Part shown: positions 1 through 61,752 of the stretch, in pieces
Numbering within the stretch: the first letter of the stretch is position 1
Layout of the letters: every line of letters starts with the position of its first letter
NCBI GenBank assembly: GCA_002363125.1
Contig: DEWE01000009.1
Coordinates: 68,489-132,488, forward strand
DNA from: Candidatus Saccharibacteria bacterium UBA3218
Lineage (GTDB): Bacteria; Patescibacteriota; Saccharimonadia; Saccharimonadales; Saccharimonadaceae
Length of the DNA: 64,000 bases
Direction: 5' to 3'
Program-made: the position numbers and the translations under genes
The notes under the pieces: generated by a model
Database searches by the model: none
What the model saw: the letters and a program-made list of their open reading frames with translations, nothing else
Told to the model about the DNA's origin: nothing

Positions 1-1180
1 TCTTCTGGAGCGCCAGCTAGTGTGTCCACTCCCACACGGAGAAGCCCAATAGCCGTAGCAAAGGAATGATCTAGATGGTCCTCCTCACCAATGATTAAAT
101 CTGGCAATTCATTAACATCCATCAAATGAATCGTCGGGCGACGCGAAAATGGTAGATTTCGATACCAATCCGAAACCGCAAGGGTTTCTTGGAGCATAGA
201 TAGACTTGCACCGCCGCCACAAAGCAAAACATTGCGCGGGAGGCTACTGAGTGCGTCAAATTCCTCTAGAGCTACCTCTACGCCTGTCAACCAAACACTA
301 AGGTTGCGAGAAATAGCAGATTCAACCTTTGCTTTTATATGGTCGTCTAATTTACCGGTGTCAAAATCTAGTTTGTAACGTTCGGCAGTATCAGTATCTA
401 CGCCGAGTGATTCGGCTATTTGGTGGGTAAAGCTTTTGCCGCCGATTGAAAACATCTTGGTGCCTTCTACGCCACCGTCTTCCACTACGGCAACATCTGT
501 AGTGCCACCACCAATATCCATTACCACGCTAGAGAAGTTTGATTCTAGGTCGTCACCAAGACAAGCCCTGCAAACCGCAAACGGCTCCACCGCTACAGTA
601 AGCAGATCTAGATTTAGCTCTGCACAAACCTTTTCGATGGCGGCAATATGAATAAGTGGGGCAAAAGCCGTATAGAATTGAATTACCACGTCGGACCCTT
701 TAAATCCTACTGGATTAGAAATTCTATAGCCATCGATTGTAAGAGAAACAATGGCCGAATTAATAAGTCTAATCTCTACATTTTTATTGCCAGTCTCTAG
801 AGCGACAGTTTTTTTGGCAACATCACCGGATTTTTCCTGAACTTTTTTGATGATATTATTCATCTCGGATTCGGTAATTGGTTTGTTGGGATTTTTGCGG
901 CTATAACGAACTGTAGTGGTATTTCCTTTGACAAGTTCGCCAGCAACACCTACAACGGTAAGATTGGCGCGCTCGCCGGCTTGTTTTTCTACGTCTACTA
1001 AAGCTTCTTCACAAACCGAAACCACGGCAGGGATATCAGCCACAGCGCCAGCGTACATATTGCCGTCTAATTGTTTGGCCTTGCCGACACCCAAAATTTC
1101 TAGCTTGCCTTTTTTGCCTGGGCGAGCCAAAATCGCTTTGACGAATTCGGTACCAATATCAAGAGCCAGGATAGTACTCA
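1..1180 (-). CDS. ftsA: FtsA-like actin-fold cell-division ATPase (3' end of gene lies beyond window start)
   Basis: Not in ORF track because it is open at the window edge. Manual minus-strand translation from ATG 1180-1178 gives MSTILALDIGTEFVKAILARPG...VVMDIGGGTTDVAVVEDGG...NVLLCGGGASL. These are actin/Hsp70-fold phosphate and adenosine motifs in FtsA order. The start overlaps the rluB stop. Confidence 0.7.
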
Positions 1181-1990
1181 TGGTTTAATTATAACACATT
1201 TACCTGGAGCTAAGCCAGTAAGCTGATATTTACCAAATTGGGTACGATGGAGGGCGGTGACTTTATAGCCAAGTGCAGCGAAAGTACGGCGGATTTGACG
1301 ATTGCGACCTTCAGTAAGCTTAACAATATAGGAATCTTCAGATACCGTCTTTCTCGGGTCGCGTCGCTCACGCCCGTTTGCCTTCGGCAATTCGTTCCGA
1401 GCGCCACGGGGCGAGCGCGCTAAATCTCGCCCTGCCGGGCTCCGAAATCCCCTCGAAAGAGGTATCTTAAGATTTCTTATAACCGTGAACTTACTTGGGC
1501 CATCATCTAACATTACGCCGTAGTCGGAGATCATTTGTTGATGAAGTGGCTCCAAGGGTCTATCAAGTTCCACTTCGTAAATTTTTTCCTTATGAAACCT
1601 TGGGTGGGTCATCTGGAAGGCAAAATTACCATCATTCGTTAATAGAATTAAACCAGAGCTGTCTTTATCTAGGCGGCCGACGGTCTTTAATTTGCGGTAC
1701 TGCCTTGGTAATAATTCGTATAGAGTTGGAGTTTTGCCTTGAGCGCGACGCGAACAAACATAGCCAACTGGCTTATTGAAGGCAATATACAAGAAATCCG
1801 TCTCAAACGGTATTATCTTTCCATTATAACATACTTTATTATTTTTGTCAATTTTTTCCCCTATCTTTGCGGTTTTTCCGTCCACAGAAATACTGCCGAC
1901 AGATATTAAATCGTCGGCTTCACGACGTGAAACGCCTAGGCGCTCAGCGAGAAATTTATTGAGCCGGAGCCCCTGGGATTGGTTGTCCAT
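1178..1990 (-). CDS. rluB: Pseudouridine synthase, RsuA/RluB family, with S4 domain; carries an in-frame palindromic insert
   Basis: 270 aa. S4 motif LRLNKFLAERLGVSRREADDLI. Core motifs FNKPVGYVCS, GRLDKDSSGLILLTNDG, TEGRNRQIRR. An atypical GC-rich segment encodes RGFRSPAGRDLARSPRGARNELPKANGRERRDP. Confidence 0.85.
   Translation of the reverse strand: MDNQSQGLRLNKFLAERLGVSRREADDLISVGSISVDGKTAKIGEKIDKNNKVCYNGKIIPFETDFLYIAFNKPVGYVCSRRAQGKTPTLYELLPRQYRKLKTVGRLDKDSSGLILLTNDGNFAFQMTHPRFHKEKIYEVELDRPLEPLHQQMISDYGVMLDDGPSKFTVIRNLKIPLSRGFRSPAGRDLARSPRGARNELPKANGRERRDPRKTVSEDSYIVKLTEGRNRQIRRTFAALGYKVTALHRTQFGKYQLTGLAPGKCVIIKP
1341..1465. repeat. GC-rich palindromic mini-element, family 1, inside rluB (core antisense to the gene)
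   Basis: Arms gataccgtctttctcggg / cccctcgaaagaggtatc. Core shares gcccgtttgccttcggcaattcg, gagcgccacggg and ccgaaat with the trmD and uvrC copies. Lies on the same (+) strand as those copies although the host gene is on the minus strand. ORF stays open. Confidence 0.8.
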
Positions 1991-2450
1991 TGTCTACCTG
2001 AGCTGGCGCAGTAGCTAGATTATTTGGTGTAGTTTGAGTCTGTGGTTCTGGGGCAGGAGTGGGAGCGGGTGCTGGAGCTGCGCGATCTCCTAATACTTCA
2101 TGGATGGTATTGACAACATCCTCAATGCCAACTTGGGATTTGACTAGATATTTATCGGCGCCAAGTCTCTCGCCGCGTTGACGCTGGTCTTCGCCAGAAA
2201 GCGCCGTCATCATAACGACTTTAATGCTGGAGGTTTCTGGAGTGGAACGCAAGATGTCTAACATATCAAAACCGGATATTTTTGGCATCATAACGTCCGA
2301 TAAAATTAAATCTGGCTTTTCGCGGACCGCTACGGCAAGGGCTTCTTCGCCATCACCAGCCGAAACCACTTCATAGCCTTCGGCGGCAATACGAATTCCA
2401 TAGATTTCACGTAGGTTTGCGTCGTCTTCGACTACCATTACTTTACTCAT
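1956..2450 (-). CDS. Single-domain response regulator (CheY-like receiver) with Pro/Ala/Thr/Gln-rich C-terminal tail
   Basis: 164 aa. MVVEDDANLREIY...LILSDVMMPKISGFD...VVMMTAL...K matches receiver-domain acidic pocket, T and K positions. No DNA-binding output domain. Tail is APAPAPTPAPEPQTQTTPNN. Confidence 0.85.
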   Translation of the reverse strand: MSKVMVVEDDANLREIYGIRIAAEGYEVVSAGDGEEALAVAVREKPDLILSDVMMPKISGFDMLDILRSTPETSSIKVVMMTALSGEDQRQRGERLGADKYLVKSQVGIEDVVNTIHEVLGDRAAPAPAPTPAPEPQTQTTPNNLATAPAQVDNGQPIPGAPAQ

Positions 2451-3865
2451 TGTTGTACTCCGTTTAAGTTGTTATTAATTTTTGGTGATGGTTGAACTAT
2501 CGTGGATGGTGGTACTGGAGGAGAAACTGGTGTAGCTGGCGGGCTGGTGGAGGGCGGCGCAGGTTGAGCAGCGGGCATTTGTGGCAGCGGTTGAACTGGC
2601 TGAGGGGCCACTTGGGCTTGGGCTTGAGCTCTGGCTTGTTCGGCTTGAGCTCTGGCTTGTTCGGCTTGAATCTGTTCTTGCATTTGTTGGTTACGTACAA
2701 CTATCATGCGTTTCTCATATTCATCACTGCTAATCCTAGGTAGGGAAACAAAGAAGGTGGAACCTTCGCCGAAGGCAGATTCTGCCCAGATGCGACCGCC
2801 CATAGCCTCGACGCGTTGTTTGGCAATATAAAGCCCGAGGCCAGTACCACCAATAGTGCGCGTATCGGAATTATCAGCACGATAGAATTTTTGGAAAATA
2901 TGACCAAGATCTTCCGAAGAGATACCAATACCAGTATCAGTAACATTTATAAGTATCTTATCGCCATCACCACGAACATTGACATAAATTGAGCCCCCCT
3001 CTGGGGTGTACTTAATGGCATTACTAATTAAATTATCCATTATCTCACGCATAAAACTTGGGTCGATGAAACCATAAACCAATTGATTCATCTGGCGACT
3101 TTCGCCAAACGAAATCGAATTGTTGGAACCGAAAGTAAGGGAAAGATTCGCCTCTTTGGCACGACCAATATATTCATCGGTAATGGTTTTTACCAAGCCA
3201 ATCATTTCAGCTGGTTCGAAATGTGGCTTTATTTTACCATCATCTAATTTGGTGACATCAAGCAAATCTTGGAATAATTTACCAAGGTGCTTTGAAGCCT
3301 TTTCTGCTGCTGAAAGATAGCCACGAGCGCGTTCATCTATAGTGGCGGTTTGAGGATTGAGTGCTAGAGAAAGGTAGCCATCGATGGTGGCTACTGGTGT
3401 ACGCATCTCATGGGAAGCGGTAGAGATAAATTCGGTCTGTTCGCCTTCTTCGGCAAGTTCTTTTGCTATATTACGAAAAGTGATTATGAAATTTGCGTTA
3501 CCAGCTAAAATAACAGATATACAAATTGGTACACGTTTATTTGATTTACTTGCGATTAAACAACATTGAAAGCCTTCTAACTGTTGCCCAGTTTTTATGG
3601 CTTGAATTAAAGGATTTTCGGCTTCTGACAATTCTCGTCCTTCTTTAGTCTCGATCCTAAGTAAAAGCCCGTAATCCAGGCCAGTGGCATTATTCGCCGA
3701 ATTACATTCTGTCATTATGACGCCAGCTGGATTAATGAATTGGATTATGCCGTTTCTATCTGTAATAATCACGCCGTCATTGATGTTATTAAGCGCCATT
3801 TCGGCCAAACCAGTTTGATTGGCTGTCGGAATTTCGCTAGTTTTATTGCGCTTAAGTATACTCAT
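2447..3865 (-). CDS. Cytoplasmic PAS sensor histidine kinase with Gln/Ala/Pro-rich tail
   Basis: 472 aa. H-box STASHEMRTPVATIDGY, N-box NLISNAIKYTPEGG, G1 DTGIGIS, G2 GGTGLGLYIAK. PAS-like N-terminus. No TM segment visible. 4-bp overlap with the downstream response regulator. Confidence 0.85.
   Translation of the reverse strand: MSILKRNKTSEIPTANQTGLAEMALNNINDGVIITDRNGIIQFINPAGVIMTECNSANNATGLDYGLLLRIETKEGRELSEAENPLIQAIKTGQQLEGFQCCLIASKSNKRVPICISVILAGNANFIITFRNIAKELAEEGEQTEFISTASHEMRTPVATIDGYLSLALNPQTATIDERARGYLSAAEKASKHLGKLFQDLLDVTKLDDGKIKPHFEPAEMIGLVKTITDEYIGRAKEANLSLTFGSNNSISFGESRQMNQLVYGFIDPSFMREIMDNLISNAIKYTPEGGSIYVNVRGDGDKILINVTDTGIGISSEDLGHIFQKFYRADNSDTRTIGGTGLGLYIAKQRVEAMGGRIWAESAFGEGSTFFVSLPRISSDEYEKRMIVVRNQQMQEQIQAEQARAQAEQARAQAQAQVAPQPVQPLPQMPAAQPAPPSTSPPATPVSPPVPPSTIVQPSPKINNNLNGVQQ
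2621..2662. repeat. Perfect 21-bp tandem duplication inside histidine-kinase tail
   Basis: ggcttgagctctggcttgttc occurs twice in a row, with partial copies on both sides. Encodes the AEQARAQ AEQARAQ repeat on the minus strand. Confidence 0.9.
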
Positions 3866-13336: not shown

Positions 13337-14686
<1,350 letters not shown>

Positions 14687-14756: not shown

Positions 14757-14907
14757 AAGCTGATACGCTTCACAGGGGTTCCACTGATTACTTAGTGGAG
14801 TGTGGAGACTTACATTAAAAACAAAAACAGCGGATTAAAACAAACCAATGTGCCCCAGGGTGGGCGCGCATCAGCGCGGGAGAGACGACTTCAAGTCGTC
14901 TCTTTTT
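14757..14907 (+). ncRNA. Candidate ~150-nt structured sRNA of unknown class, with its own promoter and terminator
   Basis: 5' gctgatacgc pairs with gcgcatcagc (14873-14884). Hairpin ccact-gattactt-agtgg. Stem acatt/aatgt encloses an A-rich loop. Terminator gagagacgact-tca-agtcgtctc plus ttttt. No plausible ORF. The trmD promoter follows immediately. Confidence 0.5.
14879..14907 (+). terminator. Rho-independent terminator of the sRNA candidate
   Basis: ggagagacgacttcaagtcgtctc followed by ttttt. Confidence 0.75.
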
Positions 14908-14952
14908 GTTTCCCCTGGTGAATTAACAGGGGAAATGTGGTATAATAAGAAC

Positions 14953-15729
14953 ATGATTAAATTCACAATTATCACTTTGTTTAAGGAAGCTCTGGAGCCA
15001 TATCTCAAAACCTCCATGATGTGGAAGGCTACAGAAAAAGGTTTAGCGGAGTTTGATTTTGTGGATTTACGTGAATTTGGCTTAGGACCACATAAGTCCG
15101 TAGATGATACGCCGTACGGGGGCGGGGACGGGATGTTGCTCCGATGCGAGCCAGTTTTTGCTGCAATTGAGTCTGTAAAAGCTAAAGATCCAGATGCGAA
15201 AGTTATTTTACCTACCCCTGTAGGTAAAATCTGGAATCAAGAAATGGCTAGAGAGTTTGCGTTTTACTCGGGGCCGCGTCCGTCCGGCCCGTTTGCCTCC
15301 GGCAATTCGCTTCCCAAGGGGCGAGCGCCACGGGTGGACGACGTTATCTCTCGCGCTGCCGCGATCCGAAATAACCCGAGTCAAAATGCAAACTCTCACT
15401 ACATCATCTTGTGTCCTCACTACGAGGGATATGACGAGAGAATTTTGTCGATTGTAGATTATAAAATTTCGCTTGGAAAATATGTTTTAACAGGTGGGGA
15501 ATTACCCGCGCTTATTATTATCGATTCCGTTGTACGGCTAATACCTGGAGTGCTTGGTGGAGAAACTTCTGCCGAGATCGAGAGCTTTTCTGAAGGTGAC
15601 AACCTAGAATATCCTCAATATACCAAACCTTACGATTTTCGTGGGATGACGGTGCCAGATATTCTGCTCTCCGGCAATCACGGTGAAATAGCAAAGTGGC
15701 GCAAGGACCATAGTGGCAAAGCGTTGTGA
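14953..15729 (+). CDS. trmD: tRNA (guanine37-N1)-methyltransferase TrmD with a ~45-residue in-frame palindromic insert
   Basis: ORF 14848-15729. True start taken as ATG 14953 (MIKFTIITLFKEALEPYL). TGgTATAAT ends 6 nt upstream. Motifs DDTPYGGGDGM, CPHYEGYDERI, LTGGELPALIIIDSVVRLIPGVLG. Insert encodes FYSGPRPSGPFASGNSLPKGRAPRVDDVISRAAAIRNNPSQNA. Confidence 0.9.
   Translation: MIKFTIITLFKEALEPYLKTSMMWKATEKGLAEFDFVDLREFGLGPHKSVDDTPYGGGDGMLLRCEPVFAAIESVKAKDPDAKVILPTPVGKIWNQEMAREFAFYSGPRPSGPFASGNSLPKGRAPRVDDVISRAAAIRNNPSQNANSHYIILCPHYEGYDERILSIVDYKISLGKYVLTGGELPALIIIDSVVRLIPGVLGGETSAEIESFSEGDNLEYPQYTKPYDFRGMTVPDILLSGNHGEIAKWRKDHSGKAL
15251..15397. repeat. GC-rich palindromic mini-element, family 1, inside trmD (147 bp = 49 codons between outer arm ends)
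   Basis: Arms gagagtttgcgttttactcggg / cccgagtcaaaatgcaaactctc. The ~113-nt core is near-identical to the uvrC copy. Confidence 0.85.
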
Positions 15730-23104: not shown

Positions 23105-23581
23105 ATGCCACGCAAAACCACTAAATCATTAGTACGCAAGGTTAGCCCTGATCGTAAATATCAATCTATGTTAGTACAAAGACTTATTAATAAGTCTATG
23201 CTTGATGGTAAAAAGCAGGTCGCTGAACGTGCTGTTTATTCTGCAATCGAAGGCGCTGCAAAAAAATTGAAGTCCGAAAATCCAGTGGAAGTTTTGGAAA
23301 AGGCTATCGCCAACGTATCACCAGATTTTGAAGTGAAGTCTCGTCGCGTTGGTGGCGCTAACTATCAAATTCCATTCCCAATCTCTGGTCATCGTCAACT
23401 TCACTTTGCATTTTCATGGTTAGTACAATCTGCTCGTGCACGCGGTGGTATGCCATATGCAAAACGCCTAGAAGCAGAAATTGTCGATGCCTATAACGAA
23501 ACCGGTGCTGCCTTCAAGAAGAAGGAAGATTGCCACCGTATGGCAGAAGCAAACCGCGCATTTGCGCATTTTGCAAGATAA
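23105..23581 (+). CDS. rpsG: 30S ribosomal protein S7
   Basis: 158 aa. VKSRRVGGANYQIP, MAEANRAFAHFA. Confidence 0.97.
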   Translation: MPRKTTKSLVRKVSPDRKYQSMLVQRLINKSMLDGKKQVAERAVYSAIEGAAKKLKSENPVEVLEKAIANVSPDFEVKSRRVGGANYQIPFPISGHRQLHFAFSWLVQSARARGGMPYAKRLEAEIVDAYNETGAAFKKKEDCHRMAEANRAFAHFAR

Positions 23582-23586
23582 CATTA

Positions 23587-23710
23587 GAGACAACAAAAAA
23601 TACCTTTGTGGGACCGGAGTCGCTCGCTCCCGTCGTTACGGGGCTCGCGCTCCTCGCGTTCTCGGTCGTAACCTCCGAAGCGTCCCAAAAGGTATTTTTT
23701 TGTTGTTTTC
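23587..23710. repeat. GC-rich palindromic mini-element, family 3, intergenic (3' of rpsG); terminator-like
   Basis: ~25-bp arms acaacaaaaaatacctttgtgggac / gtcccaaaaggtatttttttgttgt around core ggagtcgctcgctcccgtcgttacggggctcgcgctcctcgcgttctcggtcgtaacc. The right arm ends in a T-run. Confidence 0.85.
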
Positions 23711-23720
23711 AGTCTTATCA

Positions 23721-30339: not shown

Positions 30340-31719
30340 ATGGATGAGGCTTTAAAACAAAAACTTGATAAACTCCCGGTGGCTCCGGGGGTTTATTTTC
30401 ATAAAAATGCGACTGGGGAAATAATTTACGTTGGTAAGGCCGCGGTACTCAAAAATCGTGTGAGGCAATATTTCCAAAAATCGCAAAAGGATATAAAGAC
30501 TGAGGCTTTGGTGAAAGAAATTGCCGACACTGACTGGATAGTAGTAGACACAGAAATGGATGCTTTGTTTTTGGAGTCCGAAATGATCAAACGGTATATG
30601 CCAAAGTGGAATATTTTGCTCCGTGACGACAAGACAGTTTCATACGTCAGGATAAATATGAATGATGAAGTGCCATATGTATCTTTTACGAGAAACCCGG
30701 TAGATGACAAGGCTACCTACATTGGTCCATTTTATGGAAAAACTGCAGTAGAAAAGGCGGTGAGGATCCTAAGAAGAATTTTTCCTTACTACGACAAGCC
30801 ATATACTGGCAAAAAAACTTTAAACACAGACCTAGGACTGACACCTGGAATAGAAGTAGGAAAGAGTACCCCAAAAGATTATAAAAGAAATTTGCGTAAA
30901 TTGATTAGCTATCTCGGAGGAAATCGCGAGAAATTACTTAAAGAATTAGAAAAAAGTATGCATGACTCAGCATCGCGCGGTGATTATGAACTGGCAGCTG
31001 AGGCTCGCAACCAACTTTTTGGCCTGAAAGAATTAAAAAAGAAGATTGTCTTTTCCAATAAAGAATTCATGGATATTTCTTCTGATCAGGCGCTGAAACA
31101 ATTACAGAATTTGCTAAATCTCGAGAAGCCACCACGCAGAATAGAAGGGTATGATATTTCACATCAATCTGGCACTAACACCGTTGGGAGTATGGTGGTA
31201 TTCGTTAATGGGGCCTCCGCCAGAAACGAATACCGTAAATTCAAAATCCGTACTAGTACAAACGACGATTTGAAAAGTATGCAAGAAATAATCTCGCGTC
31301 GTCTAAAACATAAAGAGTGGGAATATCCAGATTTGATAATTCTAGATGGCGGAACTACACAAGTCAACGCAATTTTGCCACTCCTTGAGCCATACGGCAT
31401 ACCGGTGATTGGTCGTGATAAATCTGGTGATCATTCACATAACGCAAGGGTTGAGTTGGTATTTCAAGACTATCGAGTTCTCGGGCCGCGTCCGTCCGGC
31501 CCGTTTGCCTCCGGCAATTCGCGTCCCAAGGGGCGAGCGCCACGGGCGGACGGCGCTATCTCTCGCGCTGCCGCGCTCCGAAATACCCGAGAACTTCGAT
31601 GTCTTGAATTACCATCTAGCTCTCATATTGCGAGATTAATCGCAAGGATAGACGAAGAAAGTCATCGTTTTGCAGTTACGTATCACACTTTACTCAAGCG
31701 TAGAAATATGCTAAAGTAG
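30340..31719 (+). CDS. uvrC: Excinuclease ABC subunit C lacking the C-terminal (HhH)2 domain; in-frame palindromic insert
   Basis: 459 aa. GIY-YIG GVYFHKNATGEIIYVGKA. UVR GDYELAAEARNQLFGL. Endonuclease domain RIEGYDISH...LIILDGG...IDEESHRFAVTYH. Ends about 10 residues later. Insert encodes LGPRPSGPFASGNSRPKGRAPRADGAISRAAALRNTRE. Confidence 0.85.
   Translation: MDEALKQKLDKLPVAPGVYFHKNATGEIIYVGKAAVLKNRVRQYFQKSQKDIKTEALVKEIADTDWIVVDTEMDALFLESEMIKRYMPKWNILLRDDKTVSYVRINMNDEVPYVSFTRNPVDDKATYIGPFYGKTAVEKAVRILRRIFPYYDKPYTGKKTLNTDLGLTPGIEVGKSTPKDYKRNLRKLISYLGGNREKLLKELEKSMHDSASRGDYELAAEARNQLFGLKELKKKIVFSNKEFMDISSDQALKQLQNLLNLEKPPRRIEGYDISHQSGTNTVGSMVVFVNGASARNEYRKFKIRTSTNDDLKSMQEIISRRLKHKEWEYPDLIILDGGTTQVNAILPLLEPYGIPVIGRDKSGDHSHNARVELVFQDYRVLGPRPSGPFASGNSRPKGRAPRADGAISRAAALRNTRELRCLELPSSSHIARLIARIDEESHRFAVTYHTLLKRRNMLK
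31463..31608. repeat. GC-rich palindromic mini-element, family 1, inside uvrC
   Basis: Arms ttcaagactatcgagttctcggg / cccgagaacttcgatgtcttgaa. Core differs from the trmD copy by about 5 substitutions and 2 single-base indels, counted by eye. Confidence 0.85.
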
Positions 31720-58062: not shown

Positions 58063-58350
58063 ATGGATATTAAACGCGAGGATATTTTGCATCTAGCCAA
58101 TTTGTCTGATTTTTCATTATCTGATGCAGAGATCGAATCTCTAGGTGAAGATTTACAGGGGATTATTAGATATATCTCGCAACTTGAGGAGCTAGACACG
58201 GATGGTATTGAGCCGACTTATCAAGTATTCGAAATGGAAAATGTATGGCGTGAAGATGAGATAAAACCACAAGATGCTTCGCGCGAGCAACTACTGGCTC
58301 TTACAAAAGAAGAAAAAGATAATCAAATAAAGGTTCCGAAGGTATTGTAA
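58063..58350 (+). CDS. gatC: Glu/Asp-tRNA amidotransferase subunit C
   Basis: 95 aa. LANLSDFSLSDAEIESL...LDTDGIEPT. Confidence 0.9.
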   Translation: MDIKREDILHLANLSDFSLSDAEIESLGEDLQGIIRYISQLEELDTDGIEPTYQVFEMENVWREDEIKPQDASREQLLALTKEEKDNQIKVPKVL

Positions 58351-59816
58351 TGAAGGTAGCAAATCAAAAAGTAACCGCTGAAAGATTAGTAAGAGATGCT
58401 TTAGAGAAAGCAAAGCATTTTGCTGATTATAATATTTTTACTTTCTTGAATGAAGAAGGGGCAATCAAAAAGGCAAAGGAAATCGATGCAAAAATAGCCC
58501 GTGGAGAAAAAGTAGGTAGACTTGCTGGTGTGCCTTATGCTTTGAAAGATAATTTCTTAAGTCCAGAGGGTCAAACCACTGCTTCGGCGCATATACTAGA
58601 AGGATTTGTATCGCCTATAACCTCTACGGCAGTAGAAAAATTAGAAGCGGAGGGCGCCATTATGATCGGGCGCACCAATATGGACGCGTTTGCTCATGGG
58701 TCTTCTACTGAAAATTCCTATTTTGGTCCTACACTTAATGCATGTGATAAGAACTGCGTAGCTGGTGGCTCTTCTGGTGGGTCTGCTGTAGCCGTAGCGC
58801 TCGACATAGTGGAATTTGCGACTGGCACAGACACAGGTGGCTCAATACGACAACCAGCATCATTTAACGGTGTATATGGATTAAAGCCAACTTATGGCAC
58901 GATATCGCGCTATGGCGTAGTGGCGATGGCGTCTTCTACAGATTGTATTGGATTTTTCACCAAAACCCCAGATGATATGGATTTACTCATGGATATTGCT
59001 AGCGGACAAGATCCGAAAGATCTAACTACGTTACCAGATTACTATGGTCTAGCCAATGTGAGCAATTCTTCATTCGAGACCGTGTCTCGCGAGCCTTACG
59101 AGGCGAGCGAAGAGAGCGAACCCCGCGACGGCGGGCGTGAGCGAACGTGGTCGAGAATGGAGAATTGTCGCATTGGCATCATTAAAGATTTTGACAACGA
59201 GTCAGTTCGTCCCGAAATCAGACAGGCTCTGAAGAATAAAATTGAATCATTAAAATCTAAGGGGCATGAGATTGTAGAGTTGGAAATGCCAACCCTTAAA
59301 TATGCTTTGGCTGCATATTACATAATCGTGCCAGCGGAAATTGCCAGCAATTTATCACGTTATGACGGCATAAGATACGGTTTTAGATCTGAAAAAGCGG
59401 AAGATTTGAACGCGCTTTATAAAAATACTAGAAGCGAAGGTTTTATGCCAGAAAATAAACGCAGAATTATGATTGGCAATTTTGTGCTATCTAGCGGATT
59501 TTATGATGCGTACTTCTTGAAAGCAGCAAAAGCGCGTACGCTCATTGTAAAAGAGTACGAAAAAGCTTTTGAAAAATGTGATTTTATTTTGACACCCGTG
59601 TCGCCAAACCCAGCTTTTAAGTTAGGCGAGAAGGTCAATGACCCAGTAGCTATGTATCTAGAAGATATGATGTCTGTTTCGTTGAATTTGGCCGGTTTGC
59701 CTGGCCTTGCGATACCAACTGGAAAAACTGAAAGTGGACTGGCATTAGGATTGCAACTAGTGGGCCCTAGACGTAGCGATAAAAGTTTAATTGAATTTTC
59801 AAAGGAGTTAATCTAA
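58350..59816 (+). CDS. gatA: Glu/Asp-tRNA amidotransferase subunit A with a 35-codon in-frame palindromic insert
   Basis: 488 aa. Amidase signature GGSSGGSAVAVA and GTDTGGSIRQPA. Insert encodes SSFETVSREPYEASEESEPRDGGRERTWSRME. Confidence 0.95.
   Translation: MKVANQKVTAERLVRDALEKAKHFADYNIFTFLNEEGAIKKAKEIDAKIARGEKVGRLAGVPYALKDNFLSPEGQTTASAHILEGFVSPITSTAVEKLEAEGAIMIGRTNMDAFAHGSSTENSYFGPTLNACDKNCVAGGSSGGSAVAVALDIVEFATGTDTGGSIRQPASFNGVYGLKPTYGTISRYGVVAMASSTDCIGFFTKTPDDMDLLMDIASGQDPKDLTTLPDYYGLANVSNSSFETVSREPYEASEESEPRDGGRERTWSRMENCRIGIIKDFDNESVRPEIRQALKNKIESLKSKGHEIVELEMPTLKYALAAYYIIVPAEIASNLSRYDGIRYGFRSEKAEDLNALYKNTRSEGFMPENKRRIMIGNFVLSSGFYDAYFLKAAKARTLIVKEYEKAFEKCDFILTPVSPNPAFKLGEKVNDPVAMYLEDMMSVSLNLAGLPGLAIPTGKTESGLALGLQLVGPRRSDKSLIEFSKELI
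59063..59167. repeat. GC-rich palindromic mini-element, family 3 (reverse orientation on + strand), inside gatA (105 bp)
   Basis: Arms caattcttcattcgagaccgtg / acgtggtcgagaatggagaattg. Core gtctcgcgagccttacgaggcgagcgaagagagcgaaccccgcgacggcg is almost identical to the gatB copy. Confidence 0.85.
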
Positions 59817-60235
59817 TGGATGGCGGAGTGGTAACATTTATTATAGCGATTTTGATAGTCGCGGTTTTGGTGTTTGTGGCGATTTTGTTAACTGGCAAAC
59901 GCACTCATCACTTCAATATAGAGGCCTATCAAACACGTTTCCTCGCTATTGAAAATAAATTAAACAAAGAAAATCCTGCCACTTTTGTAACAACAATTTT
60001 AGAAGCGGATAAGCTGCTAGATAAAGCTATGGTGGAAATGGGGTTGTCTGGAAAAACGATGGGGGAAAGATTGAAACACGCCAATGGGAAATTTGAAGAT
60101 ATTAATGCGGTTTGGCGAGCACATAAATTGCGCAACGCTATTGCCCATGAATCAGATTTAGAAATTGGTTACAAACAAGCATTAAATGCCTTGGCTATTT
60201 ATAAAAAGGCATTGAAAGATTTGGGGGCAATTTAA
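59816..60235 (+). CDS. Small TM-anchored protein with HEPN-like Rx4H motif (DUF4145-like), embedded in the gatCAB operon
   Basis: 139 aa. TM VVTFIIAILIVAVLVFVAILL. All-helical remainder containing AHKLRNAIAHES. Start overlaps the gatA stop (TAATG) and stop overlaps the gatB start (TAATG). Confidence 0.5.
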   Translation: MDGGVVTFIIAILIVAVLVFVAILLTGKRTHHFNIEAYQTRFLAIENKLNKENPATFVTTILEADKLLDKAMVEMGLSGKTMGERLKHANGKFEDINAVWRAHKLRNAIAHESDLEIGYKQALNALAIYKKALKDLGAI

Positions 60236-61752
60236 TGAAATACATTCCAACGATCGGTGTTGAATGTCATGTGCAACTTTGCACCAAGACTAAGCTTTTT
60301 TCTGAAGTAGATAATGATGCACGCGGGAAAGAACCAAACTCCTGCGTATCGCCAGTGGACTACGCGCTTCCTGGTATGTTGCCGAGGTTAAACGGTGAAG
60401 CAATAAGGTTTGCGATTCTGGCTGGCAAAGCCATGAATTGTAAAATTAATAATTATTCCAGATTTGATCGCAAGCATTATTTCTATCCGGATTCACCAAA
60501 AGGCTATCAAATCACACAATTCTATCACCCGATCATTGGCGAAGGTTATGTAGATTTACCGTCCGGCGAGAGAGTCCGGATTGAACACGCGCATCTAGAG
60601 GGTGATGCTGGAAAGTTGACCCATTTCGATAAATATTCACTTGTAGATTTGAACCGCGTAGACACGCCACTCATTGAGATTGTTTCTATGCCAGATATAC
60701 ATTCTGCTAAAGATGCTCATGATTATTGTAAAGAACTCTGGCGGCTAATGTGTTTTACTGGTGTCACTAATGGCGATCTATATAATGGCAATATGAGATT
60801 CGATGTCAACACGTCTATTGCTCCTGAGGGATCTAATGAACTTGGGACTAGAACTGAGGTAAAAAATCTGAACTCATTCCGCTCTGTCGAGCGTGCTATA
60901 GAATATGAAATCGCAAGACAAACGAAAGTTCTAAAATCTGGAGAAAAAGTCATACAAGAGACTCGTGGCTGGAATGATGCGACTGGTAAAACCACTGGTC
61001 AGCGGAGCAAGGAGGAGGCCAAAGATTATCGTTACATGCCAGAGCCAGACCTTCCACCGATTAATCTAACTCAAGAATTTATTGATACTGAAGCCGCAAA
61101 ACTTCCAATGATGCCTAGTGAGTACAAGGCAAAATTCGCTGGCATTATTGCTGACGATACTCTGGAAGTATTACTCGATTACCCAGAATTGATGAAAAAA
61201 CTAGGTGAGATAAGTGCTGGAGACGATTCTTCTGAGACCGTGTCCCGCGAGCCTTACGAGGCGAGCGAAGAGAGCGAACCCCGCGACGGCGAGCGCGAGC
61301 AAACGTTGTCGAAGAAGAACGTCTCAGCACTTAAACTGCTGTCTAATTTGTTTGCATCAGTACTTCTTGCAGAAGAGAAATCTGCAGAATACTTAAATGA
61401 TTTGCCGACCGCAATGGAACTTTCTGAACTCGCTGAAATGAATGAAAAGAAAGAGTTAAGCTCCACTGCGACCAAAGAAGTATTTCTCCGACTCTTTGAT
61501 CCGCAAATGAAGGGAAGAGGAACTAAAAATATCGCCAAAGAATTAGGGCTAATTCAAGAAAATGATTTGGATGCTCTGGAGGCCATCGTTGATACAGTTC
61601 TCGCAAAACCAGAAACCCAAAAAGCCCAAGACGATTTTAGAAACGGGGAAGAAAAAGTTATAGGTTTCCTCGTTGGACAAGTCATGAAAGAATCTCATGG
61701 TAAGGCCAATCCGTCTGCCGTACAAGAAATTTTGCGAAAAAAATTGAAATAA
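60235..61752 (+). CDS. gatB: Glu/Asp-tRNA amidotransferase subunit B with in-frame palindromic insert before the YqeY-like tail
   Basis: 505 aa. IGVECHVQL, RFDRKHYFYPD, YRYMPEPDLPP. Insert encodes SSETVSREPYEASEESEPRDGEREQTLSKKN. Confidence 0.95.
   Translation: MKYIPTIGVECHVQLCTKTKLFSEVDNDARGKEPNSCVSPVDYALPGMLPRLNGEAIRFAILAGKAMNCKINNYSRFDRKHYFYPDSPKGYQITQFYHPIIGEGYVDLPSGERVRIEHAHLEGDAGKLTHFDKYSLVDLNRVDTPLIEIVSMPDIHSAKDAHDYCKELWRLMCFTGVTNGDLYNGNMRFDVNTSIAPEGSNELGTRTEVKNLNSFRSVERAIEYEIARQTKVLKSGEKVIQETRGWNDATGKTTGQRSKEEAKDYRYMPEPDLPPINLTQEFIDTEAAKLPMMPSEYKAKFAGIIADDTLEVLLDYPELMKKLGEISAGDDSSETVSREPYEASEESEPRDGEREQTLSKKNVSALKLLSNLFASVLLAEEKSAEYLNDLPTAMELSELAEMNEKKELSSTATKEVFLRLFDPQMKGRGTKNIAKELGLIQENDLDALEAIVDTVLAKPETQKAQDDFRNGEEKVIGFLVGQVMKESHGKANPSAVQEILRKKLK
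61216..61328. repeat. GC-rich palindromic mini-element, family 3 (reverse orientation on + strand), inside gatB
   Basis: Arms gctggagacgattcttctgagaccgtg / aacgttgtcgaagaagaacgtctcagc. The core is shared with gatA. The outer arm sequence is copy-specific. Confidence 0.85.

What the first reader, a model, noticed from the sequence alone, without database searches (positions are those of the whole stretch)
1341..1465. The same element family is tolerated in the opposite orientation inside rluB
The rluB copy shares gcccgtttgcct.cggcaattcg, gagcgccacggg and ccgaaat with the trmD and uvrC copies. It lies on the same genomic strand as those copies, but rluB is transcribed from the other strand. The core is therefore translated as its reverse complement (RGFRSPAGRDLARSPRGARNELPKANGRERRDP) and is still stop-free.

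An element that stays open in at least one frame in both orientations is unusual. It suggests the sequence has been shaped to be insertable into genes, as proposed for RPEs.
Basis: seen in the sequence. Interest (0 to 1): 0.65.

Follow-up and report, generated by a model that had tools for sequence, protein, structure and literature searches.

The report
Flippable palindromic repeat inside Saccharibacteria genes
A 120-base GC-rich hairpin-forming repeat sits in frame inside the rluB gene (and five other essential genes nearby) of a gut Saccharibacteria genome. It is read through as a floppy protein loop, and it can be turned round in place, which explains why it is tolerated in either orientation.

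Summary
Window 1340-1459 is a 120-nt, 64% G+C insertion in an intact rluB-like ORF on the minus strand. It is homologous to the copies in trmD and uvrC and is read as their reverse complement.

It belongs to an apparently undescribed family of imperfect palindromes in gut and rumen Saccharibacteria. Seven copies lie in this 64-kb window, six of them inside housekeeping genes. Of 51 distinct long copies collected from public genomes, 37 sit in long ORFs: 18 sense and 19 antisense, using all six frames.

Each copy has its own complementary flanking arms around a conserved, covarying core.

One pair of related rluB genes differs by a clean in-place inversion of the whole hairpin. Inversion never shifts the downstream frame, so this explains the tolerance of both orientations.

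Element cores are far more conserved (79-89%) than host third codon positions (42-59%). This is unexplained.

It is best read as a Rickettsia-RPE-like selfish palindrome in a new phylum. How it colonises new sites is unknown.

The parts
1340..1459 (+). 120-nt palindromic repeat element (long form lacking the 9-nt CCCAAGGGG hairpin), inserted in frame in rluB. The element is in + orientation and the host gene is on the minus strand, so it is read antisense (frame 'A1': LSRGFRSPAGRDLARSPRGARNELPKANGRERRDPRKTVS).
   Evidence: It is absent from close relatives L040 and L042, where the junction reads ...AGATACCT|AAAGATT. nhmmer E=3e-27. G+C is 0.64 against 0.40 for the window.
1333..1474 (.). Full hairpin including the copy-specific outer arms (AATCTTCAGATACCGTCTTTCTCGGG ... 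CCCCTCGAAAGAGGTATCTTAAGATT).
   Evidence: Folds at -55.5 kcal/mol (z -3.9) on the + strand and -66.1 kcal/mol (z -5.0) on the minus strand. The copy's own right flank is the best pairing partner of its left flank.
1372..1394 (+). Conserved tip hairpin (TTGCC-TTC-GGCAA) used as the family tag.
1178..1990 (-). Host gene: rRNA pseudouridine synthase of the RsuA/RluB family, intact, 270 aa. The insert corresponds to residues ~175-214.
   Evidence: orthologues of 226-232 aa without the insert and 250-300 aa with it. RsuA 1vio aligns to residues 7-159 and 207-256; residues 174-217 have pLDDT below 50 and lie between two strands.
13602..13709 (+). Short (tip-less) copy in frame in obg (ORF 13337..14683, minus strand), read antisense.
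   Evidence: At the same site L039 carries a long copy, L038 a sense copy, and L047 is empty.
15253..15395 (+). Long copy in frame in trmD (ORF 14848..15729, +), read sense (frame 'S0': GPRPSGPFASGNSLPKGRAPRVDDVISRAAAIRN).
   Evidence: The window has 120 nt more than L045, which keeps a terminal scar. L046 is empty.
23577..23719 (+). Short copy between rpsG and gap, with 27-nt arms followed by a T-run (terminator-like position).
   Evidence: (I2).
31454..31617 (+). Long copy in frame in uvrC (ORF 30340..31719, +), read sense (S0), with 32-nt copy-specific arms.
   Evidence: D1, I7; DNA fold z -6.6. Orthologous copies in L009 and L051 have different but still complementary arms.
59052..59177 (-). 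Short copy in frame in gatA (ORF 58350..59816, +). The element is in minus orientation, so it is read antisense (ETVSREPYEASEESEPRDGGRER).
   Evidence: D3; aligns with the long copy of L049 minus the 33-nt tip; L024 is empty.
61212..61332 (-). Short copy in frame in gatB (ORF 60235..61752, +), read antisense.
   Evidence: D3; same site as the L024 copy.

Best explanation
The rluB segment is one copy of a family of GC-rich imperfect palindromes, about 80-160 nt long, that populate gut and rumen Saccharibacteria (Nanosyncoccus-like) genomes. It most likely works at the DNA level as a selfish hairpin repeat.

Anatomy, from outside to inside:
- copy-specific complementary arms of 15-30 nt;
- a conserved inner inverted repeat (TTCTCGGG...CCCGAGAA);
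- a covarying middle helix;
- an optional 33-nt tip made of two small hairpins;
- a side hairpin on the 3' side.

Inside genes the element's length is a multiple of three. It is read through, and it adds a 25-45-residue Arg/Pro/Gly/Ala/Ser-rich disordered loop at a surface turn. In RluB this turn lies between two beta strands.

Orientation relative to the host gene is not fixed, because the palindrome can invert in place through its arms. An in-place inversion leaves the downstream frame untouched, so it is tolerated whenever the reverse-complement frame has no stop. At 64% G+C that happens in roughly half of all frames.

Over time:
- the arms stay complementary and creep into neighbouring codons;
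- tips are gained or lost in multiples of three;
- whole elements are deleted, sometimes leaving scars.

Shown: family membership, the in-frame state, hairpin covariation, copy-specific arms, one clean inversion, one deletion scar, and core conservation.

Inferred: that the insert is translated; that inversion and arm maintenance go through arm recombination or replication template switching; and that the family is selfish rather than useful.

Unknown: how new sites are colonised.
For: Family and in-frame state:
- Three long and four short copies lie in the window.
- Collection scans returned 36 Saccharibacteria loci among 39 genome hits, plus 14 metagenome loci.
- Of 51 distinct copies, 37 lie in long ORFs: S0 12, S2 5, S1 1, A1 12, A2 6, A0 1.
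- They occupy about 23 different housekeeping genes.

Insert position:
- It is exactly 120 nt relative to relatives that lack it.
- It falls in a loop missing from RsuA structures, and AlphaFold2 gives pLDDT below 50 for residues 174-217.

Hairpin:
- Fold z-scores run from -2.9 to -6.6.
- 16 of 37 consensus pairs show compensatory changes.
- A copy's own right flank is the best partner of its left flank in 34 of 54 copies. Matched flanks average -33.0 kcal/mol and mismatched flanks -20.1.
- In mnmA the arms reach conserved native codons through synonymous codon choices.

Inversion:
- Between L062 and L063, rluB identity over 183 nt rises from 115 to 170 when the central 126 nt is reverse-complemented.
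- By peptide motifs, both orientations occur at the rluB site (about 50 antisense, 8 sense) and at the trmD site (about 40 sense, 9 antisense).

DNA level rather than mRNA level:
- The G.T versus A.C mismatch bias follows the element's orientation, not the host gene's.

Loss:
- L045 trmD keeps the element's left end as a scar.
- At least 15 gains or losses are needed among 120 RluB orthologues.

A mechanism for making and keeping stems by replication template switching is described in PMC8794818.
Against: - No transposase, target-site duplication or recent insertion event was found, so mobility is inferred only from the multi-copy, multi-site distribution.
- Element cores are much more conserved between orthologous copies (0.79-0.89) than host third codon positions (0.42-0.59).
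- Cores do not follow site orthology. The window uvrC copy is 96% identical to the trmD copy of L047 and the tatD copy of L042, but 86% identical to its own orthologue. A passively decaying selfish insert would not behave this way. It needs gene conversion, repeated re-insertion or selection.
- Translation is not directly shown, because no RNA or peptide data cover these genes.
- Only one clean inversion pair was recovered. The other opposite-orientation pairs are too diverged to separate inversion from independent insertion.
Confidence: 0.72

Rival explanations
1. The element is kept by the host, or by a dedicated enzyme, because the DNA hairpin itself does something. It could be a binding or processing site comparable to REP/BIME elements, with copies homogenised by a REP-transposase-like protein or by gene conversion. 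The in-frame copies are then a tolerated side effect.
For: Cores are 79-89% identical between orthologous copies while host third codon positions are saturated at 42-59%. In L062/L063 the element is about 98% identical inside about 82-84% identical flanks. High G+C persists in a 40% G+C genome. Cores do not follow site orthology. The helices covary.
Against: No candidate enzyme appears among the Pfam-annotated neighbours in any fetched locus. Copies are frequently lost, at least 15 changes among 120 RluB orthologues, and the tip is optional. Several sub-families coexist in one genome: L017, L033 and L036 lie on one contig. That argues against genome-wide homogenisation.
Confidence: 0.18
2. It is a classical MITE. 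Copies in either orientation reflect independent transposase-mediated insertions into a few permissive or preferred sites, not in-place inversion.
For: There are conserved sub-terminal inverted repeats and several sub-families shared across genomes at different sites. The same sites in tsaD, tatD, gatA, obg and a methyltransferase gene carry different sub-families in opposite orientations in distant genomes.
Against: No direct target duplication of 3 nt or more is seen at the rluB junction. The flanking repeats are inverted and copy-specific, not direct. The L062/L063 pair is an exact inversion including the arms. No transposase was seen.
Confidence: 0.2
3. It is a structured RNA element acting in or excised from the mRNA: an intron-like intervening sequence, an RNase III site or a regulatory hairpin.
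For: The hairpin is long and stable, brings the two flanks together, and shows compensatory changes.
Against: All 37 genic copies keep the host frame and are stop-free, which excision would not require. The element occurs in both orientations relative to transcription. Wobble-type mismatches follow the element's orientation, not the mRNA strand. No Rfam family matches at either threshold. It is far too short for a group I or group II intron.
Confidence: 0.04
4. The inserted peptide is a selected protein module that benefits the host enzymes.
For: The insert persists at the same loop in many orthologues.
Against: The same DNA is read in six different frames, giving unrelated peptides. The peptides are low-complexity, and the RluB insert is predicted disordered. 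Conservation is at the nucleotide level across frames. Many orthologues lack the insert.
Confidence: 0.03

Closest known systems
Rickettsia palindromic elements (RPE-1 to RPE-8; Ogata et al. 2000, listed in PMC3184786)
   Same: Palindromic repeats of about 105-150 bp in a small, AT-rich genome of a host-dependent bacterium. Many copies per genome, in both intergenic regions and intact protein-coding genes. They are inserted in frame and add surface peptide segments to housekeeping proteins. No transposase is known.
   Different: The phylum is different (Saccharibacteria/Patescibacteria) and sequence relatedness could not be tested. The elements here are strongly GC-rich relative to the genome. 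Copies are read in all six frames and in both orientations at the same site. An in-place inversion is documented here. The arms are copy-specific and complementary. The core is more conserved than host synonymous sites. I do not know whether these points have ever been examined for RPEs (own knowledge).
Mobile GC-rich hairpin elements of mitochondrial genomes (yeast GC clusters, fungal double-hairpin elements, sponge repetitive hairpin-forming elements, PMC2800124)
   Same: Short GC-rich hairpin-forming repeats that spread in AT-rich reduced genomes. They are found in spacers and sometimes inside coding or rRNA genes. Their mechanism of spread is unknown and no dedicated enzyme is known.
   Different: Those are organellar and mostly shorter. 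Insertion into many essential protein genes with frame preservation is not their typical pattern.
Bacterial MITEs (Correia/NEMIS, ERIC, RUP, BOX, Nezha; reviewed in PMC3184786 and PMC10969869)
   Same: Small non-autonomous repeats with terminal inverted repeats that fold into long stem-loops. Some are fused to or inserted in ORFs.
   Different: MITEs have direct target-site duplications and a cognate IS. Neither was found here. The flanking repeats here are inverted and copy-specific, and about 73% of copies lie inside genes.
REP/BIME elements with REP-associated tyrosine transposases (PMC3733652)
   Same: GC-rich imperfect palindromes kept similar across a genome, acting at the DNA level.
   Different: REPs are 20-40 nt, extragenic and linked to a RAYT gene. 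The elements here are 80-160 nt, mostly intragenic, and no RAYT was seen.
Template-switch (quasi-palindrome) mutations that create and maintain hairpins (PMC8794818)
   Same: This offers a mechanism for arms that stay complementary through clustered compensatory changes, and for stems that extend into flanking sequence.
   Different: It is a mutational process, not an element family. Its involvement here is inferred, not shown.

Membership tests
Rickettsia palindromic elements (RPE) | Repeated palindromic sequence of about 100-150 bp, present in many copies per genome | tested here: met
   Seven copies in 64 kb. Hairpin folds have z-scores of -2.9 to -6.6.
Rickettsia palindromic elements (RPE) | Copies inserted in frame in intact protein-coding genes, at permissive surface positions | tested here: met
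   37 of 51 copies lie in long ORFs. The RluB insert lies in a loop and has low pLDDT.
Rickettsia palindromic elements (RPE) | Sequence homology to the RPE-1..8 consensus sequences, and occurrence in Rickettsia | not testable with these tools
   No RPE sequences or models are in the available libraries. The host here is Saccharibacteria, so this is an analogue, not a member.
MITE | Terminal inverted repeats conserved among copies | tested here: met
   TTCTCGGG...CCCGAGAA and longer sub-family repeats.
MITE | Direct target-site duplication flanking each copy | tested here: inconclusive
   The rluB filled-versus-empty junction shows only a 2-nt ambiguity (CT). Flanks are inverted, not direct. 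The 'empty' alleles may themselves be deletion scars.
MITE | Cognate autonomous IS or transposase with the same ends | not tested
   None appears among the Pfam-annotated genes of the fetched loci. Whole genomes could not be scanned.
REP/BIME | 20-40-nt extragenic palindromes associated with a RAYT gene | tested here: not met
   Length is 80-160 nt and about 73% of copies are intragenic. No RAYT was seen.
Self-splicing intron or other known structured RNA | Match to a curated RNA family; no need for frame preservation | tested here: not met
   No Rfam match at the gathering or E-value threshold. All genic copies are in frame and stop-free.

The most novel reading that the evidence does not exclude
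The element may not be a passive selfish insert. It could be an actively maintained DNA hairpin system that needs no transposase. On this reading, cores are continually rewritten between copies by template switching or gene conversion. That would explain why cores are more conserved than host synonymous sites and ignore site orthology. The arms would grow by self-templated copying of flanking codons. In-place flipping would then give essential enzymes two alternative surface loops from one stretch of DNA.
Probability: 0.2. Interest if true: 0.8.

Novelty: new member of a known kind. Interest (0 to 1): 0.6.

Why it matters
In-frame 'selfish DNA inside genes' has been a curiosity known mainly from Rickettsia. 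Finding an unrelated family in Saccharibacteria suggests that this is a recurrent outcome of reductive, AT-rich genome evolution. The family occupies at least 23 different essential genes at roughly one copy per 9 kb here.

The family also offers unusually clear material on how palindromes evolve inside coding DNA: in-place inversion, arm extension into codons, modular tips and deletion scars.

Practically, these inserts inflate and diversify predicted proteins in candidate-phyla-radiation (CPR) genomes. They can confound orthology calls, alignments and structure prediction, and they are strain-level markers.

The unexplained strong conservation of the core is a concrete, testable question about gene conversion versus function.

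Tried and rejected
- Rfam, at the gathering threshold on the whole window and at the sensitive threshold on four loci, found nothing on the element.
- The three metatranscriptomes from the source sample do not cover window 13-32 kb, so splicing and transcription could not be tested.
- DNA contigs of related samples laid on rluB showed no informative joints.
- A profile search (nhmmer) found no extra long copies and missed the short variants. Those were found through G+C islands and flank-anchored comparison instead.
- A protein word-index search with a 42-aa antisense peptide returned no candidates.
- An exhaustive search of cluster representatives with the uvrC sense peptide gave only 5 hits and was uninformative.
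- The consensus terminator scan cannot see the intergenic copy, because its loop limit is too small.
- The idea that arms are pre-existing target palindromes was considered. Small 5-6-bp inverted repeats do exist at the empty rluB and mnmA sites, but they are far too short to account for 15-30-nt arms.
- The idea that the stem is selected in the mRNA was rejected on mismatch asymmetry.
- Four literature searches found no description of such elements in Saccharibacteria or CPR bacteria.

Full report
**1. The observation**

The window is AT-rich (40.3% G+C) and encodes typical small-genome housekeeping genes. The minus-strand ORF 1178..1990 (270 aa) is an RsuA/RluB-family pseudouridine synthase. 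It contains the quoted peptide.

The tag GCCCGTTTGCCTNCGGCAATTCG occurs three times on the + strand, at 1372, 15287 and 31499, with none expected by chance. The three regions align at 78% mean column identity. The copies at 15287 and 31499 lie in trmD and uvrC on the + strand and are read in the sense frame. The rluB copy is read as the reverse complement. A profile built from 54 copies hits window 1338-1465 at E=3e-27.

**2. Exact extent of the insert**

RluB orthologues from Saccharibacteria come in two length classes: 226-232 aa and 250-300 aa. The extra residues always fall at one position.

DNA of the closest relatives without the insert (L040, L042) reads ...AATCTTGAGATACCT|AAAGATT.... 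The window has exactly 120 nt (40 codons) between these points, at window 1340-1459.

The RsuA structure 1vio aligns to residues 7-159 and 207-256, with about five residues in between. An AlphaFold2 model gives pLDDT below 50 for residues 174-217, between two strands. The insert is therefore a disordered loop at a beta-hairpin turn, and the catalytic core is intact.

**3. A large family**

G+C islands and flank-anchored comparisons reveal four more copies in the window:
- in obg (13602-13709);
- between rpsG and gap (23577-23719);
- in gatA (59052-59177);
- in gatB (61212-61332).

These are short forms that lack a 33-nt tip. The last two are in the opposite orientation on the + strand. So seven copies lie in 64 kb, six of them inside intact essential genes: two read sense and four read antisense.

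Scanning one genome per species with a 21-nt tag gave 39 loci. Thirty-six are Candidatus Saccharibacteria or Nanosyncoccus MAGs, mostly from ruminant and other guts. A metagenome scan added 14 loci.

Among 51 distinct long copies, 37 lie in ORFs open for at least 40 codons on both sides. Eighteen are sense (S0 12, S2 5, S1 1) and 19 are antisense (A1 12, A2 6, A0 1).

Host genes include Dus, TsaD, ArgRS, ValRS, IleRS, GatA, GatB, QueA, Tgt, MnmA, TruB, Der, Obg, TatD and UvrD, plus RluB, TrmD and UvrC. The remaining 14 copies lie at gene ends or in spacers.

No Rfam family matches the element. Four literature searches found no description of such elements in Saccharibacteria or CPR bacteria.

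**4. Anatomy**

Every copy folds into a long hairpin. A consensus fold of 25 copies has 37 pairs, 16 of them with compensatory double changes. The parts are:
- a base helix;
- a covarying middle helix (for example CCGTCC/GGACGG versus CCGGCC/GGCCGG versus GCTCGC/GCGAGC);
- a tip with two small hairpins;
- a side hairpin on the 3' side.

Outside the conserved part, the flanks differ from copy to copy, yet within each copy the left flank is complementary to the right flank. Matched flanks pair at -33.0 kcal/mol on average, against -20.1 for mismatched pairs. A copy's own right flank is the best partner of its left flank in 34 of 54 copies.

Orthologous copies (uvrC in the window, L009 and L051; der in L016 and L032; gatA in the window and L049) have different arms that still pair. 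In mnmA the stem reaches conserved native codons through synonymous codon choices: GCAAGA...CTTGCA in the filled allele, against GCACGT...TTAGCC in the empty one.

**5. Why both orientations are tolerated**

At the rluB site and at the trmD site, both orientations and several frames occur among orthologues. An approximate motif count gives about 50 antisense to 8 sense for RluB, and about 40 sense to 9 antisense for TrmD.

One pair of related rluB genes settles the mechanism. Between L062 and L063, direct identity over a 183-nt stretch is 115. It rises to 170 when the central 126 nt, the whole hairpin with most of its arms, is reverse-complemented. That is a clean in-place inversion.

Inversion does not change the phase of downstream codons. 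The only requirement is therefore a stop-free reverse-complement frame.

Composition makes that likely. The type-A consensus is stop-free in four of six frames. For the three window copies, 83-91% of dinucleotide shuffles are open on both strands. In genic copies the five unused frames are no more open than shuffles (0.486 vs 0.483).

Only a modest overall depletion of stops remains (3.20 vs 2.57 open frames).

**6. DNA or RNA?**

All genic copies are in frame and stop-free, which argues against excision from the mRNA. In the stems, G.T versus A.C mismatches are 32:46 in sense hosts and 28:43 in antisense hosts. The bias follows the element, not the transcript. The structure is therefore most likely relevant as DNA.

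Replication template switching is a described way to create and maintain stems with clustered compensatory changes (PMC8794818). It would account for the arms. This step is inferred.

**7. Dynamics**

- Among 120 RluB orthologues, 94 are filled and 26 are empty, which needs at least 15 changes on a tree.
- The closest relative of the window lacks the trmD copy but keeps its left end as a scar (REFALCSGSHY).
- The 33-nt tip differs between near-identical proteins (P0003/P0011, P0014/P0015, P0046/P0105).
- Some copies carry nested inserts (L009, L038; P0055, P0059, P0023).

**8. What remains unexplained**

Element cores are 79-89% identical between orthologous copies, while third codon positions of the flanking genes are 42-59% identical. 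In L062/L063 the element is about 98% identical inside about 82-84% identical flanks.

Cores do not follow site orthology. The window uvrC copy is 96% identical to the trmD copy of L047 and the tatD copy of L042, but 86% identical to its own orthologue.

This calls for gene conversion among copies, repeated re-insertion at the same sites, or selection on the DNA. No transposase or direct target duplication was seen, so how new sites are colonised is unknown.

**9. Comparison and verdict**

The closest known kind is the Rickettsia palindromic element. Both are palindromic, multi-copy and in frame in housekeeping genes of a reduced AT-rich genome (PMC3184786). GC-rich hairpin elements of mitochondria are a second analogue (PMC2800124).

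The element is not a REP, not a known RNA family, and not demonstrably a MITE.

I file it as a new member of the known kind 'protein-coding palindromic repeat' in a new phylum. Two points are worth follow-up: the documented in-place inversion and the unexpectedly strong core conservation.

Noticed in passing
window 13602-13709, 23577-23719, 59052-59177, 61212-61332: Four further copies of the same family: tip-less short forms in obg, in the rpsG/gap spacer, in gatA and in gatB. The gatA and gatB copies are in the opposite orientation on the + strand. They look like a separate family until aligned with the long copy of L049.
   Followed up: yes
L001-L061 host ORFs and the window: Host genes are heavily skewed to translation and tRNA/rRNA-modification enzymes: Dus, TrmA-like, TsaD, QueA, Tgt, MnmA, TruB, TrmD, RluB, ArgRS, ValRS, IleRS, GatA, GatB, Der and Obg. 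That is about 16 of 23. Whether this exceeds their share of long conserved genes in such small genomes was not tested.
   Followed up: no
L045:10370-10400 (trmD of the closest relative): The apparently empty trmD allele keeps GCGCTTTGCTCGGGG, the left end of the element, which encodes LCSG. This is a deletion scar, so 'empty' sites in close relatives are not necessarily virgin sites.
   Followed up: partly
TrmD orthologues P0159, P0164, P0165, P0174, P0175, P0177, P0224: At the same trmD loop, some orthologues carry a different, less GC-rich insert of about 50-60 aa (…VFSEAGLEFSSTSYAGQPAEPSLRDEPVGDVRDIRVENSNQ…). This is possibly another repeat family using the same permissive site.
   Followed up: no
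RluB orthologues P0055, P0059, P0023: A second sequence (…DDATKREKSELARISERGSDVSK…) is nested at the tip of the element, giving RluB loops of 74-77 aa, so the elements accept inserts within inserts. L009 and L038 carry a nested copy of the CCCAAGGGG hairpin module in the side hairpin.
   Followed up: no
window 2560-2700 (minus-strand ORF 2447..3865, histidine kinase): A GC-rich stretch with a 21-nt tandem duplication (GGCTTGAGCTCTGGCTTGTTC x2) encodes AEQARAQ repeats and a Pro/Gln-rich tail at the C-terminal end of the kinase. It is unrelated to the hairpin family.
   Followed up: no
window 14848-14952: The mechanical trmD ORF starts 35 codons upstream of the conserved MIKFTIITLF start. The extension (…WYNKNM) appears to read through the promoter -10 region. 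Similar '…CYN.DM' strings precede several genes next to intergenic copies (L034, L061), which places those copies just upstream of promoters.
   Followed up: no
intergenic copies: window 23577-23719, L002, L003, L008, L031: Intergenic copies end in T-runs directly after the outer arm (for example GTCCCAAAAGGTATTTTTTTGTTG). This suggests that they sit in, or serve as, intrinsic terminators after the upstream gene.
   Followed up: no
window 31483-31588 vs L047:10319-10424 and L042:20424-20529: The window uvrC copy is 96% identical to copies in different genes (trmD, tatD) of genomes whose shared genes are only about 75-80% identical, but only 86% identical to its own orthologue. Element sequences do not track site orthology.
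   Followed up: partly
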